A DNA stretch of 63,896 nt from Negaprion brevirostris (Eukaryota): positions 38,473,784 to 38,537,679 of the forward strand of contig JARDVH010000031.1 in NCBI GenBank assembly GCA_030324005.1, given 5' to 3'. Within the stretch, counting starts at the first letter, position 1; each line of letters starts with the position of its first letter. Below, piece after piece: positions 18,001 to 24,000 of the stretch. Position numbers: made by a program.

Positions 18001-21000
18001 TTATTTTGGCTTGTTTGTCATGAACAATAGTTAGCATGTTACGCAATTTTAATGTGAGTAATATTTCCTCCACGACAGCAAAGAATAAACAAGAATTTTA
18101 ACTGTCCAAGGACTCTATCAAGACCATTGCACAATTGACCAATCATGTGGCATGCTTAAACCCTAAGGAAAAGTGTACTTCCCAAGTTTTTCATCCCTCT
18201 GACCTGGGTAAACTGGCAAAATTCAGCATCAAGTGGAAAGTTGGGAAACAAATGCTTGTCAAAATTAGACAGATGCTGAACTCTAATAGTTTGATGCACT
18301 CTAGCTGTTGAACCAGGGAATAATTTGGGATAATATTCCATGTAATTATGCTTTTCAAGAGTTGACTTTAATGGTAATAAAATCTTTGAATTGTTTTTAA
18401 AGTGCCTGAAACTGAAGAGGTACCTGCTACAACACTTCCTATTTCTGCTCCAGGACCAGTCAAGAAACCGCTTAAAGGTACAATTTATCAAAAGCTTGAA
18501 CCTTAATTTACAATGGCAAATTTTAAAATACCTAACTACATAATATGTTGATATACAGTTTAGTATTTTTTTTCCTGAATGCTAAATGGTAAAGTTATGC
18601 AGAATTTAATTGCACAGATTTCTAAATGTTGTGTATTGGTTGTATCAAATTGTCTTCAGTCTATTTAAAAAGTTACAATTCATGTATCTTGTCTCTTGTG
18701 ATCCCTTCTGTTAATGTGTTTATTTGGAAATTTTGCTGTCTATGGGTATGTTTTACAGTGTGTTTAATTTGGTGAACTCACCAATTTAGTTTGGAGATGA
18801 TGACATTGTTTGGTTTTGTTTAAATGTTAGACTGTTCTTTTACGGAATTGCAAAAAAAGTCCTTTTTGATGTATCACTAAATTATATATGAAACCTTTAT
18901 AGCTGCAGAACAATTCAAGCCATCTTTGAAACTAAAACCTACAGTCAAAGTTCCAAAGGAAGTAGAAGATATAGAAATTTCAGTACTGAAGAAAATTAGT
19001 AAGCTTCCCAAGGAAGAGAAAGATGAAGATGAGGGCATTATATCAAAAAAGGTGGATAGCTCCCCTAAAGAAGAAGACAAGTACATAGGGGTAGAACTTA
19101 GGAAACCAATTAAAGGTCCTGAGGAAGTGGAAGATGAAGAACATGTATCACGAAAGAAACCAGATGTAATCTTAAAAGAGAAAGAAACAGAAAGAGAAAT
19201 AATATTGCAGTTGGTTGATGAGATTCCTAAAATAGATAAAGATTATGGAAAAGGTGTATCAATAAAGAAATTAGATAAAATTTCTATTGAACAAGATGAT
19301 GCATACAAAATGTTACCAAGGAAAGGTACCAAAGTACAATCCAAAGAAATGGAGGAGGAGCCGGGTACACCACCGAAGAAACCTGATAAGATCACTAAAC
19401 AAAAGGAAGAAGCGGAAAAGATATCACTAAAAAAGCGTGACACAGTCCCTAAAAAAGAAACATTAAAAGAAAAACACATAATATCAAAGAAACTACCCAG
19501 TGATGAAGAAGATAGAAAAAAGCAAATAATATTGGAAACAGTTGGTGAAGTGCCTAAAATTGAAAGAGGCATAGAAAAGACTGTGCATTTAACCAGAACA
19601 GAACCAGTTCCTATGAAGGTAGAAGACAGAGAAAAGATATCTGTGAAGCGTACCCTAGTTGCTGATACAGAGAAGGATAAGGAGAAGATAATTCCATTGA
19701 AGGAACCTAGTCAAAGCCCTATAGAACAGAAAGATGAAGACAAACATTTGGCACTGGGAAAAGATAGGACATCGCCTCAGCTTGTGGAGGAAAAGGAACA
19801 CCCTAGTCTGAAGAAAGTTGACCTTCCTAAAATTATTCATGAAAAGACCAGGATTGCACCATCTCTTGAAAAAGAGGCACCCAAAAGTATAGAAATTTAT
19901 CCAGTTGATAGGATACCCAGGAAGACTGCTCCTGAAGAGCCTGCATCAAAATTGGTACGAGAGGTTACTGCAGAAGAGGCTGCCGATATTACCAAGACAA
20001 CATATGAAAAGAAAATGGTACCCTCCAAAGAAAAACCTCATGAAACACCTTTAAAGGTTGGAAAAGGGAAAGTTCTGGTTTCAAAAGAGCTGGAAACAGC
20101 TTTACTGAAAAAAATTCCCTCAAAAGGAAGTGCATTTGATGCAAAAGAACCACAAAAGATTCACAAATTACCTGAAAAGGCTGTGGCAGCTTATAAAGAG
20201 AAAACACAAATTATCCCTACTAAAATGGATAAAGGGAAAGTATCTGACGAACAGGAACCAGTGCAGTTAGAACAATTCCCCTTGAAAGAAATTCTGTTTG
20301 AAGATAAGGAATTAGAGAAAATAAAGAAAGTTCCTGAAAAGACATCAGTGATCCCTACAGCGAAAGTTGATGAAACACATTTTAAAATTGCAAAAGGAAA
20401 AATTCCTGTTTTGGAAGAACAGAAAGATCACATAGAGCTGAAGAAAGTTCCTTCAAAGGAAGTTGTAATAGAAGAAAAGCCACAGAAAGTACCAGTAAAG
20501 AAAGTACTGACACCCAGGGATATATCTGATATTGCACATCCTAAAATTGGAAAGGGAAAAGTACCAGTGTCAGAAGAAAGAGATCAAGCACAGGTGAAGA
20601 AGATTCCTTCAAAAGAAGCTGCGGTAGAAGAAAAGCCACAGAAAGTACCAATAAAGAAAGTACTGACACCCAGGGATATACCTGATACTGCACATCTTAA
20701 AATTGGGAAGGGAAAAGTACCAGTATCAGAAGAAGAAAAAGATCAAGCACAGATAAAGAAAATTCCTTCAAAAGAACCTGCAGTGGAAGAAAAGCCACAG
20801 AAAATACCAATAAAGAAAGTCCTGACACCCAGGGATATACCTGATGCTGCACATCTTAAAATTGGAAAAGGAAAAGTACCAGTGTCAGAAGAAGAAAAAG
20901 ATCATGTACAACTGAAAAAGATTCCTTCAAAAGAACTTGTGATGGAAGAAAAGCCACAGAAAATACCAGTAAAGAAAGTACTGACACCCAGGGATATACC

Positions 21001-24000
21001 TGATACTGCACTTCCTAAAATTGGAAAGGGAAAAGTACCAGTGTCAGAAGAAGAAAAAGATCAAATACAGCTAAAAAAGATTCCTTCAAAAGAACTTGTG
21101 ATGGAAGAAAAGCCACAGAAAATACCAGTAAAGAAAGTACTGACCCCTAGAGATGTGGCACACCTTAAAGCAGGCAAAGGGATTCCATCAGCTGTTGAAA
21201 AAGAATTGGAACTAACACAAATTAAAAAAGTTCCCTCTGAAAGCATCTCCACAGAAGATGACTACGAAGTAGAATCAGAAGAAATGTCAATAGAAGAATT
21301 ACGGGACAAAGGAGACTGGGAATGGGAATTAACTGAAGAAGAGGAGGAATATGGCTCATCTGTTGACTGGGAGCATGAAGATGATGAAGAGTTTGAGGGT
21401 GCAGTTGAGACTCCTTCAAAGCCTTACAAACAACGAGGTGAGATGGCTGCTGCACATCTACCAAACTGATTGTTCATATCTTGTGCTTTGGAAAATGGAT
21501 CAGTGTTCTTTGTTTTTGTTTGTGTTCATCTTTTGTCAAACATCTTTGTTTGTCCTCGCAATGCAGCTTGTGTTTATGTGCATGATGTATCATGGTTGTC
21601 AAAAGTCTGTCAAAAGGTTGTTAAAATTCATGTCTGTTTCTTGTGTTTGGTCCATGTGGTCCTATGCTTCCCAAAGAAAAATTGTCTTAATTTGCTTTGT
21701 CATTTGCTATTAACAGAGCTATGGGTGAATTAAAATCATTTTTCATTTACATCATTGAAGGCACAGGCTTCAGCAGACCTTTCAAATTGTCTGGTTTCAC
21801 ATTTTTCATTCAAAACTAATTATGTCTTTTTCTTCATTTTACATCTCCTCTGGCCGCATGAGTAAACCTTTGTTTAGTGTATTAAACAAGTGGTAGTGCC
21901 ATTTTTGATTTTTCTTTTGCCTGTATTACAGATTATCAATATATAAATATATTTTTCCATCTAAATACAATACACTTTCTGAGCCTCATTGTTTCCACCC
22001 TAAGGTTATAACAGAAGCATCTTAACATATAATAATTTGGAAGGATAGTCTTGACATGCCGATAATTATGTTACTATCTCACTACAGATGCTAAGACACC
22101 AGCAGATGAAGCCGGCAGGGGTAGAGGCTTCCTCAGAGGTGAGAGGGGATATCAAGCACTTAGTCACAACTAAGGATCCATGCATGATTGTACACATATA
22201 TTTGTTTCACAAGCACTACCAAACATTAAGTTGCAAACACATGCAATAATATTCCAACATAACATGCCAATTTAAGACAAATCATTGAATTATACTGCTG
22301 TTAAACAGAACTTTATTTAAATTTAATTCATGTATTAGTAAAAAGAAATCCATTAAGTGTTATGGTACATTTCAGTTATTTTAGAACTTAATTTGTCATA
22401 TCAATTTGCATGCTCTTCCGATTACAAAAATGATTGTGGCTGCGTAGACTCGATAGCAGACCCTAGATTAATATTGCATTGCTTACTTTTGCATGAACTG
22501 TCCTCTCTTTATATGCTTGCAGCTCCAAAGAGTAATAATTGAAGTTTAAATATACCTATTTACCAAGCATGAGTAATCAGTTTGTATACTGCACCTGATT
22601 ATTGGCCAGAACTGATGTTGGTGGAGGAGAACTTAGCATGAAAGCTAAATGAAGAAACATACACAATGTTTCAATGTCCTGATTGCCTTACTAGAATCTA
22701 AAACTTTAATGCATGCATTTCATTTTCTATTTGCGTGAAAACTTGTGTTTCTGGCTGTATTGAGTAGTTCCTACTTGAATAAAATTGTGCTGCCTGAAGA
22801 CTGATTATGAATCATTGGTGCTCCTTGGCAAATAGCAAATATACCAGTGCTGAAATTATATTGGCTGTATATTATGCAAATCTTACAACCTGAAAGCATG
22901 ATGAAATGCGTAGACTTTGAAGGATGAGCTTCAATGCACCAATTTACCTCAGAAAACCAAGTTTACAGAGTTTGATCTCTTAGTCAGTCACATTGCTCTG
23001 CTTGCATCACTGTCTTTTCTTTTCCAACTGAAAATGGCACATGGCATCTAAATGTCTGGTTCGCATCAAACCATCTTCAGAAGCATGCAAAAAAAAGCAA
23101 CAAATAAAACTGAATATATTTATGTTCAACTCTAAATTTTAGCGAAAAAGACACCATCGCCTGGAGAGGGAGACAAGAAGCCACTTAAACCGGGTGGAGG
23201 AAGGCCACCCTCAGAGGAACCACCTTTTGCAGGATTCCAGCTCAAAGCAGTCCCACTGANNNNNNNNNNAATTTGTCAAAGAGTTGAAAGATATTGTGCT
23301 GGAGGAAGCTGAGTCTATAGGGTCTTCTGCCGTCTTTGAATGCCAGATCTCCCCATCTACAGCGTTAACATCATGGATGAAGGATGGAAGCACTGTGAGA
23401 GAAAGTCCTAAATACAAATTTACCTCCGATGGCAAAGATAGAAAGTTACACATTATTGACGTGCAGCTTTCAGATACTGGTGAATATTGCTGTGTTGGTC
23501 GCCTCGGCAAACAAGAAAAGACATCCACAGCAAAACTAATTGTTGAAGGTACTGAGCATTGCTGTTTGAGATATTTCACAGCATAAATCATGAGCAAGAC
23601 TGTGCAATGTATTAAAGTTGTGCAACTTAGGAACCCTGCTGAATAGTTACTTTCAGTCTAATTTCTAAGGTCAAATGGTCATACACATTGTTACCATGTT
23701 ATTTCACAAGATTCATCAATTCAGTGTGATCCAAGTTCTAGATTTGGATCTTTTAGGTGTTATGAAAAGCTTTTGCCATTTTGTACAATATGAATACTTC
23801 GGTTTTTTTATCGAAAATTAATTGATATTTTCCCAAAACATTTTAGAATTGCCAGTGGCATTCTTTAAAACATTGGATGAGGAAGTAACTGTCTTCAAAG
23901 GACAGCCCCTGTATTTGACCTGTGAGCTGACCAAAGAAAAACCAGTGGTTTGGAAGAAGGATGGTGAACCTCTTGAACCCACATCTGACAGATACACAAT

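What the first reader, a model, noticed from the sequence alone, without database searches (positions are those of the whole stretch)
18903..21437. Giant 2.5-kb single PEVK exon
One stop-free phase 1-1 exon of 845 codons sits among mostly 63-84-nt exons near the PEVK end. I do not recognise an equivalent at this position in mammalian titin. One splicing choice would add or remove ~845 disordered residues, a large switch in spring length. It has three parts: short degenerate repeats, 53-aa repeats and an acidic tail.
Basis: partly seen in the sequence, partly recalled or inferred. Interest (0 to 1): 0.7.

Follow-up and report, generated by a model that had tools for sequence, protein, structure and literature searches.

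The report
Giant charged spring exon in titin
A cartilaginous-fish titin gene carries one real 2.5-kb exon at the end of its elastic region that encodes about 845 disordered, highly charged residues; its acidic tail is shared with bony-fish titins, so it is an enlarged old element and not a one-off oddity.

Summary
Window 18903-21437 (+) is a stop-free, 2535-nt, phase 1-1 exon with AG/GT borders. It lies inside a titin gene, between PEVK mini-exons and the first distal Ig exon.

**Evidence that it codes:**
- The 862-codon open frame compares with a maximum of 155 in 1000 shuffles.
- The repeat copies differ mostly at synonymous sites (pooled pN/pS 0.37).

**What it encodes:**
- Residues 1-386 have an 18-19 / 55-residue period.
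- Seven to eight 53-residue units follow, five of them young.
- The exon ends in an acidic, tryptophan-bearing tail.

**Not canonical PEVK:** P+E+V+K is 51%, proline is 9%, there is no 28-residue period and no Pfam match. The model is fully disordered (pLDDT 33).

**Relatives:**
- Three large protein searches found no relative of the whole exon.
- The tail motif recurs at the same place in three teleost titin models (carp, Lates, Lucifuga), followed by the same GRGRG and TPSPG elements.
- The elephant-shark model joins the flanking exons directly, as expected if the exon is skipped or absent there.

**Best reading:** an old fish titin spring element, enlarged here by tandem duplication, adding about 320 nm of contour length. 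Whether it is alternatively spliced is untested. It is a new variant of a known kind, of moderate interest.

The parts
18903..21437 (+). Giant exon, 2535 nt = 845 codons, phase 1-1. The translation of 18905-21436 is P0001 (844 aa).
   Evidence: Acceptor tttatag|, donor CGAG|gtgaga. The polypyrimidine count of 9 of 17 is the lowest of the 10 exons compared.
18903..20062 (+). Part 1 (P0001 residues 1-386): K/E-rich degenerate repeats with an 18-19-residue period and a 55-residue super-period.
   Evidence: At lags 18, 19, 55 and 74, none of 2000 shuffles reached the observed value. Lag 28 is not enriched (1027 of 2000 shuffles reach it).
20063..21175 (+). Array of seven 50-56-residue units (starting at residues 387, 443, 497, 550, 602, 655 and 708). 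The last five are 79-92% identical at the DNA level.
   Evidence: 159-nt unit x 4.9, 20376-21144; units in register; pooled pN/pS 0.37; 10 of 10 pairs below 1.
21176..21437 (+). Degenerate eighth unit running into the acidic tail (residues 758-844; net charge per residue -0.25).
21317..21415 (+). Conserved tail motif: W.WE ... DWE ... GA[VL]E[TA]P (P0001 residues 805-837).
   Evidence: Local alignment score against Lates P0012 is 87, against a shuffle mean of 45, sd 7 (0 of 300 shuffles reach it). Against carp P0027 it is 64 vs 43.4, sd 5.7 (1 of 300). Against Lucifuga P0003 it is 46 vs 36.6 (8 of 300).
18403..18477 (+). Upstream 75-nt PEVK mini-exon, phase 1-1; its last base is G.
22088..22138 (+). 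Downstream 51-nt mini-exon, phase 1-1, encoding the GRGRG element that is also seen in the elephant-shark and teleost models.
   Evidence: P0014 and P0012.
23143..23548 (+). Last PEVK-region exon, carrying the TPSPG element and the first distal Ig domain. A run of N interrupts it, so its length and 3' phase cannot be read.
   Evidence: I-set, E 1.1e-13; 95% identity to a Callorhinchus milii Ig protein.
16432..16893 (+). Second large exon (462 nt, phase 1-1), E-rich with a repeated ILPEE..DE motif. It is part of the same spring region.

Best explanation
The stretch is a genuine coding exon of the titin gene of a cartilaginous fish. It lies two exons before the first distal Ig domain.

It encodes about 845 residues of intrinsically disordered, strongly charged but net-neutral chain that is low in proline. 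In series with the PEVK segment, this chain would act as an entropic spring. When included it would add roughly 320 nm of contour length per titin molecule.

Most of its length arose by tandem duplication inside the exon. First came an 18-19-residue KK-hydrophobic-P type unit, then a 53-residue unit that is still 79-92% identical between copies.

Its 3' end, an acidic tryptophan-bearing motif, is much older. It is shared with teleost titins and is followed in both lineages by the same GRGRG and TPSPG elements.

**Shown:**
- The frame, the splice signals and the phase.
- Purifying selection between repeat copies.
- Predicted disorder.
- Conservation of the tail and of the exon order.

**Inferred:**
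- The spring function.
- Inclusion in mRNA.
- That inclusion is regulated, as a cassette exon whose skipping keeps the frame and even the same junction codon.
For: **Location.** The exon lies in a titin gene on the coding strand. PEVK mini-exons lie upstream. Ig exons run from 23.2 to 43 kb and Fn3/Ig exons from 43.5 kb.

**Frame.** The open frame is far beyond chance and only one of six frames is open.

**Splice compatibility.** AG/GT borders and phase 1-1 match both neighbours. The exon upstream and the giant exon both end in G, so the next exon's first two bases give the same codon with or without the giant exon.

**Selection.** Pooled pN/pS is 0.37 among the five young repeat units, and 10 of 10 pairs lie below 1, range 0.14-0.80.

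**Disorder and composition.**
- AlphaFold2 single-sequence model: mean pLDDT 33.2, 831 of 844 residues below 50, no helix or strand.
- Fraction of charged residues 0.425 and net charge per residue 0.001.

**Conserved tail.** Tail and exon order are shared with Lates P0012, carp P0027 and Lucifuga P0003. Carp has about 380 residues of similar composition directly upstream of its tail (charged fraction 0.41, proline 7%).

**Evidence bearing on skipping.**
- The elephant-shark model P0014 joins the equivalents of the two flanking mini-exons directly.
- Elephant-shark expressed PEVK segments are 372-424 aa in heart and 634-774 aa in skeletal muscle, all shorter than this exon alone (PMC12241362, Results read in full).
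Against: - No transcript evidence is available, so inclusion and its regulation are unshown.
- The bulk of the exon has no detectable relative. There were 0 hits among 7998 scored candidates of 1478-4220 aa, 0 among 8000 of 464-1477 aa, and 0 at E <= 0.001 by phmmer against 1.84 billion representatives. BLASTP against carp P0027 gave E 0.2.
- Seven of 9 named titin models with at least 60 residues upstream of the TPSP element lack the tail: Otolemur, Takifugu, Hucho, Callorhinchus, Etheostoma, Arctogadus and Neolamprologus.
- The mouse C-terminal PEVK exons 219-225 are constitutive (PMC7274174). That argues against assuming a switch at this position.
- The pN/pS pairs share copies and are not independent.
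- The single-sequence AlphaFold model is a weak test of disorder.
Confidence: 0.7

Rival explanations
1. The exon is real but constitutive. It is present in every titin isoform of this animal, so it sets a fixed long spring rather than acting as a switch.
For: - In mouse, the seven C-terminal PEVK exons (219-225), which occupy the corresponding position, are constitutively expressed (PMC7274174, abstract and passages).
- The tail is conserved over the cartilaginous/bony fish split.
- The repeat copies show purifying selection.
- The donor is consensus-like.
Against: - The elephant-shark model P0014 joins the flanking exons directly.
- That species' cloned PEVK segments (372-774 aa) are shorter than this exon.
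- The acceptor has the weakest pyrimidine tract of the 10 exons compared, 9 of 17.
- All exons of the region are phase 1-1, which allows skipping.
- None of this comes from the species in the window.
Confidence: 0.3
2. It is an unexpressed intronic open frame: a decaying former exon or a chance product of purine-rich simple sequence.
For: - There is no transcript evidence.
- No relative of the bulk was found in three large searches.
- The pyrimidine tract is weak.
- The elephant-shark model lacks it.
Against: - The open frame is 862 codons, against a maximum of 155 in 1000 shuffles.
- Pooled pN/pS is 0.37.
- The phase fits both neighbours exactly.
- The tail is found in expressed-type gene models of three teleosts, continuous with titin Ig domains.
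Confidence: 0.07
3. The exon is real, but the assembly misstates its length because the 159-nt repeats were collapsed or expanded.
For: Five units are 79-92% identical over 159 nt, a type of array that assemblers can miscount. The window contains several N runs elsewhere.
Against: - The copies differ at 8-21% of positions, which is enough to anchor reads.
- There is no N run inside the exon.
- Even without the five young units, about 580 codons remain.
Confidence: 0.1
4. It is a separate nested gene or a mobile-element open frame lying inside a titin intron.
For: The frame is long, and no family was recognised.
Against: - Pfam shows no match to transposon or other domains; the only listing is PF08789 at 17.4 bits, below its cut-off of 20.4.
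- There is no second copy in the window (tblastn at 1e-3).
- The frame opens without a start codon context, at a splice acceptor, and closes at a splice donor.
- Homologous tails in teleosts are part of titin proteins.
Confidence: 0.02

Closest known systems
Titin PEVK segment of mammals (PPAK and poly-E exons)
   Same: - Same gene and the same region, just before the first distal Ig domain.
- Phase 1-1 exons.
- Rich in K, E, P and V, and predicted to be unfolded.
- Expected to act as an entropic spring in series with the tandem Ig segments.
   Different: - **Exon size:** 2535 nt, against means of 76 nt (PEVK-C) and 93 nt (PEVK-N) in 41 mammals (PMC6469411).
- **P+E+V+K:** 0.51, against 0.79-0.84 there and 0.78 in the Otolemur model. 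This is below the 0.54 threshold of PEVK_Finder.
- **Proline:** 9%, against 27% in the Otolemur model.
- **Period:** 18-19 and 53-55 residues, not about 28 (the 28-residue PPAK length is recalled).
- **Pfam:** no PPAK match.
Pre-Ig region of teleost titin models: carp P0027, Lates japonicus P0012, Lucifuga dentata P0003
   Same: - They carry the acidic Trp tail motif.
- The order is the same: tail, then the GRGRG element (no GRGRG was found upstream in the carp model), then TPSPG, then the first distal Ig.
- Carp has a long, low-proline, charged stretch before the tail, with similar composition.
   Different: - The bulk does not align (BLASTP E 0.2).
- Carp shows no significant periodicity.
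- Whether the teleost stretch is one exon is unknown.
- The 53-residue repeats are not seen there.
Elephant shark (Callorhinchus milii) connectin/titin, PEVK end (model P0014; Hanashima et al. 2025, PMC12241362)
   Same: - It is the closest relative found: 95% identity over the 92-residue Ig query.
- The flanking mini-exon peptides are the same, including the GRGRG and TPSPG elements.
   Different: - The model has no counterpart of the giant exon between them.
- The paper's Results text, read in full, mentions no giant PEVK exon and gives expressed PEVK lengths of 372-774 aa.
- Its figures and supplements could not be seen.
Titin N2B unique sequence (recalled, not tested here)
   Same: It is a long disordered spring element encoded within a single large exon of the same gene.
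   Different: - It sits elsewhere in the gene (proximal I-band) and has a different composition.
- Its exon also encodes Ig domains.
- No sequence relation was tested or seen.

Membership tests
Coding exon of the titin I-band spring region | Lies within the titin gene on the coding strand, between PEVK exons and the distal tandem Ig exons | tested here: met
   - Searches give the exon map.
- an Ig exon matches titin and MyBP-C chains in the PDB.
- 71 hits at E <= 1e-10. All named ones are fish, bird or mammal proteins, 8 of them named titin or titin-like and most of the rest generic Ig-domain or hypothetical names.
Coding exon of the titin I-band spring region | Canonical splice signals and a phase compatible with the neighbouring exons | tested here: met
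   Searches show AG/GT borders, phase 1-1, and the same junction base (G) as the upstream exon.
Coding exon of the titin I-band spring region | Signs of selection on the reading frame | tested here: met
   open frame against shuffles; pooled pN/pS 0.37; 10 of 10 pairs below 1.
Coding exon of the titin I-band spring region | Orthologous sequence in titin proteins of other species | tested here: inconclusive
   - Tail: present in 2 of 9 named models with at least 60 upstream residues, plus one model that begins inside the tail.
- Bulk: no significant match.
Coding exon of the titin I-band spring region | Presence in mature mRNA | not testable with these tools
PEVK segment in the strict sense | About 70% or more P+E+V+K (figure from PMC12241362 introduction; mammalian exon means 0.79-0.84) | tested here: not met
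   Whole exon 0.509; by part 0.46-0.53.
PEVK segment in the strict sense | PPAK-type repeats of about 28 residues or poly-E motifs; Pfam PF02818 | tested here: not met
   - No PF02818 match even at E <= 1.
- Lag 28 is not enriched.
- Caveat: the window's own 22-27-residue PEVK mini-exons, sent singly, also gave no Pfam match. The Pfam control is therefore weak.
PEVK segment in the strict sense | Unfolded, extensible chain | tested here: met
   By prediction only: pLDDT 33.2 and no secondary structure.
Alternatively spliced cassette exon | Both the inclusion and the skipping junctions observed in transcripts | not testable with these tools
   The evidence is indirect only: symmetric phase, the weakest pyrimidine tract, and the elephant-shark model P0014 with the flanking exons joined.

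The most novel reading that the evidence does not exclude
Jawed fishes ancestrally carried a fourth titin spring element at the PEVK/distal-Ig border, distinct from PEVK, the N2B unique sequence and tandem Ig. It consists of a low-proline polyampholyte chain ending in an acidic tryptophan motif that serves as a docking site for a sarcomeric partner. Tetrapods lost it. This cartilaginous lineage enlarged it to 845 residues by internal duplication and uses its inclusion or skipping to roughly double spring length between muscle types.
Probability: 0.15. Interest if true: 0.6.

Novelty: new variant of a known kind. Interest (0 to 1): 0.4.

Why it matters
Titin stiffness is set by the length of its unfolded spring segments. 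In mammals that length is tuned by choosing among about a hundred tiny PEVK exons.

Here a single exon would contribute more residues than the whole PEVK segment cloned from elephant-shark heart or skeletal muscle (372-774 aa, PMC12241362). One splice decision, or simply the exon's presence, could therefore dominate passive stiffness in this animal.

It also shows that the end of the 'PEVK' region in fishes contains a conserved acidic Trp motif that is absent from the mammalian model I could see. That motif is a candidate binding site. In print it is undescribed as far as my seven searches of the held library show.

The practical point for annotation is that composition-based PEVK finders, with a threshold of 0.54, would miss this exon.

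Tried and rejected
**Whole-exon protein searches (all empty).**
- The search for homologous proteins, longer: 1478-4220 aa, 7998 candidates scored, 0 hits.
- The search for homologous proteins, near: 464-1477 aa, 8000 candidates scored, 0 hits at E <= 0.01.
- phmmer against 1.84 billion representatives: 0 hits at E <= 0.001.
- PDB: 0 hits at E <= 1.
- ESM Atlas: no usable hit.
- These blanks are weak evidence. Full-length titins (>20,000 aa) lie outside the length windows. The 934-aa carp model P0027, which does share the tail, was not returned. Only one cartilaginous-fish protein appeared in the control search.

**Direct comparisons.**
- BLASTP of the exon against carp P0027 and Lates P0012 was not significant over the bulk.
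- The tail against the E/W/Y-rich stretch at the start of the Otolemur PEVK was no better than composition allows (52 of 300 shuffles reach the score).

**Other checks that led nowhere.**
- The Pfam PPAK control on the window's single mini-exons gave no match, so that control is uninformative.
- Carp showed no significant periodicity.
- Inside the exon there are 156 in-phase AG sites, none with a better pyrimidine tract than 11 of 17. There are 14 in-phase GT sites, none consensus-like. I found no support for splitting the exon.
- TCTT density is 16.9 per kb in the downstream intron against 6.3 per kb in the window (11 sites in 650 nt). I keep this only as a lead for RBM20-type repression; the motif is recalled.
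- My first self-BLAST for internal repeats returned only the self-hit, so I used autocorrelation instead.

**Literature limits.**
- Granzier et al. 2007 on the chicken titin gene is not held. I could not check whether a large PEVK exon is described there.
- Supplements of PMC12241362 and PMC6469411 (exon tables) were closed and may bear on both the mammalian exon sizes and the elephant-shark exon list.

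
Full report
**Setting.** The window is a stretch of a titin gene on the + strand.
- Upstream lie PEVK mini-exons of 72, 72, 63, 69, 84 and 75 nt at 514, 2800, 4758, 8379, 16017 and 18403, plus a 462-nt E-rich exon at 16432-16893.
- Downstream lie Ig exons from about 23.2 to 43 kb and Fn3/Ig exons from 43.5 kb.
- One Ig exon matches titin and myosin-binding protein C chains in the PDB.
- A search with the intact part of the first distal Ig exon returned 71 proteins at E <= 1e-10 among 140 candidates. All named ones come from fishes, a bird or a mammal; 8 are named titin or titin-like and most of the rest carry generic Ig-domain or hypothetical-protein names. The best hit was a Callorhinchus milii protein at 95% identity. 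Bony fishes gave 70-87%, a bird 82% and a bushbaby 75%.
- I therefore take the window for a cartilaginous fish other than C. milii, and not for human.
The N runs were left as they are.

**The observation.** One frame is open from 18881 to 21469.
- The exon runs from the acceptor at 18903 to the donor after 21437. That is 2535 nt, or 845 codons, in phase 1-1.
- The longest open frame in 1000 shuffles of the region averaged 77 codons and never exceeded 155. The other five frames hold 15-76 stops.
- The exon upstream (18403-18477) and the giant exon both end with G as the first base of a split codon.
- A 51-nt exon that I found at 22088-22138 starts with the two bases that complete this codon. 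The junction therefore reads the same whether or not the giant exon is included.
- After that comes the last exon of the region (from 23143), with the TPSPG element and the first distal Ig domain. An N run interrupts it.

**Anatomy.**
- Residues 1-386 of the translation (P0001) show identity peaks at lags 18, 19, 55 and 74. None of 2000 shuffles reached the observed value at any of these lags. The 28-residue lag expected of PPAK repeats is ordinary, with 1027 of 2000 shuffles reaching it (family-wise check).
- Seven units of 50-56 residues follow from residue 387, then a degenerate eighth. Tandem Repeats Finder sees the younger ones as a 159-nt unit x 4.9 at 20376-21144.
- Each 53-residue unit is itself three sub-units of 16-19 residues that begin K-K/G-K (my reading; lags 19 and 34). 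The whole exon therefore looks built from one short motif in two rounds of amplification.
- Among the five young units, synonymous differences dominate. Pooled pN/pS is 0.37, and all 10 pairs lie below 1 (0.14-0.80). The pairs are not independent.
- The last 94 residues carry net charge -21 and all three tryptophans of the exon.

**What kind of chain it is.**
- Charged residues make up 42.5% of the exon, and its net charge per residue is 0.001.
- Proline is 9.1% and P+E+V+K is 0.51. The PEVK part of the Otolemur model has proline 27% and P+E+V+K 0.78.
- Mammalian PEVK exons average 76-93 nt with ratios of 0.79-0.84. The published PEVK finder uses a floor of 0.54 (PMC6469411, passages read).
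- Pfam gives nothing above threshold and no PPAK match. However, single mini-exons of the window also fail that model, so the control is weak.
- The AlphaFold2 single-sequence model is unfolded throughout: mean pLDDT 33.2, with 831 of 844 residues below 50.
- I therefore do not file the exon under PEVK in the strict sense. It works like PEVK, as an unfolded chain in series with the spring. It is a different, low-proline polyampholyte sequence.
- At a conventional 0.38 nm per residue (a recalled value) it adds about 320 nm of contour length.

**Relatives.** Searches with the whole exon were empty. These blanks are weak evidence, for the reasons given under Tried and rejected. The informative result came from reading the hits of the Ig control search.
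- Carp P0027, Lates P0012 and Lucifuga P0003 carry an acidic stretch with W.WE and/or DWE, and then GA[VL]E[TA]P, directly upstream of their TPSPG/Ig exon. This matches the end of the giant exon.
- Local alignment of the window's tail scored 87 against Lates, with a shuffle mean of 45, sd 7, and 0 of 300 shuffles reaching it. It scored 64 against carp (43.4, sd 5.7; 1 of 300) and 46 against Lucifuga (8 of 300).
- Among the 72 stored proteins, W.WE occurs only in P0001, P0012 and P0027. The GA..P pattern occurs only in those three and P0003.
- In Lates and Lucifuga, as in the window, a GRGRG element lies between the tail and TPSPG. No GRGRG was found upstream in the carp model.
- Carp has about 380 residues of similar composition before its tail. 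That stretch neither aligns with the window's bulk nor shows periodicity.
- Against this, 7 of the 9 named models with at least 60 residues upstream of TPSP lack the tail. These include the bushbaby, two pufferfish-type or perch-type models, and the elephant shark.
- These are gene models. Absence may therefore mean skipping, the second teleost titin gene, a missed exon, or true loss.

**Elephant shark.**
- Model P0014 runs from the equivalent of the 75-nt exon straight into the GRGRG exon and then TPSPG/Ig. This is the junction expected if the giant exon is skipped or absent.
- Hanashima et al. 2025 (PMC12241362: abstract, passages, and Results read in full) cloned PEVK segments of 372-424 aa from heart and 634-774 aa from skeletal muscle. 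All are shorter than this one exon. The text I read does not mention a giant exon. Figures and supplements were not available.

**Splicing.**
- Features that would suit a regulated cassette exon: the symmetric phase, the identical junction base, the weakest pyrimidine tract of the ten exons compared (9 of 17 against 11-14), and a raised TCTT density in the downstream intron.
- Against that, in mouse the seven C-terminal PEVK exons at the corresponding place are constitutive (PMC7274174, abstract and passages).
- Without transcripts the question is open. I put the cassette reading only slightly ahead.

**Verdict.**
However, the exon is neither canonical PEVK nor an orphan: its 3' end is an old fish titin element that is already present in annotated teleost proteins.
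- What is particular to this lineage is the size, produced by internal tandem duplication.
- I found no description of the exon or of the tail motif in seven searches of the held library. Granzier et al. 2007 on chicken was not held, and zebrafish connectin papers in subscription journals are outside the library.
- I rate it a new variant of a known kind, of moderate interest.

Noticed in passing
window 16432-16893 (+): A second unusually large spring-region exon (462 nt, phase 1-1). It is very acidic and has a repeated ILPEE..DE motif. It has no Pfam match.
   Followed up: partly
window 329-8533 (+): Four near-identical 63-72-nt PEVK mini-exons (at 514, 2800, 4758 and 8379) lie in duplicated exon-plus-intron blocks of 65-76% identity. 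This indicates tandem segmental duplication of the PEVK array.
   Followed up: partly
window 62443-62720 (+); 38287-38050, 27024-26843, 45383-45213, 25290-25109 (-); 11758-11884 (+): A SINE-like interspersed repeat has six copies, with the other five 72-81% identical to the 62443-62720 copy, all in titin introns.
   Followed up: partly
window 1-100 and 1372-1471: A 100-nt direct repeat at 99% identity, of unknown nature.
   Followed up: no
window about 12030-12130 (+): A possible further small charged exon beginning VPEVMK in an otherwise exon-free 7.5-kb gap of the PEVK array. Its borders were not resolved.
   Followed up: no
window 21438-22087: The intron after the giant exon has 11 TCTT in 650 nt (16.9 per kb), against 6.3 per kb for the window. 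This is a lead for RBM20-type splicing repression; the motif is recalled and no test was done.
   Followed up: no
window 23143-23548 (+): The reading frames on the two sides of the N run inside the last PEVK/Ig exon differ by one base. The run does not preserve length, so the exon's size cannot be read.
   Followed up: no
P0006 (Otolemur garnettii model), residues about 270-310: The bushbaby titin model has an E/W/Y-rich acidic stretch at the start of its PEVK region. Its composition resembles the fish tail, but the alignment is no better than shuffles (52 of 300 reach the score).
   Followed up: partly
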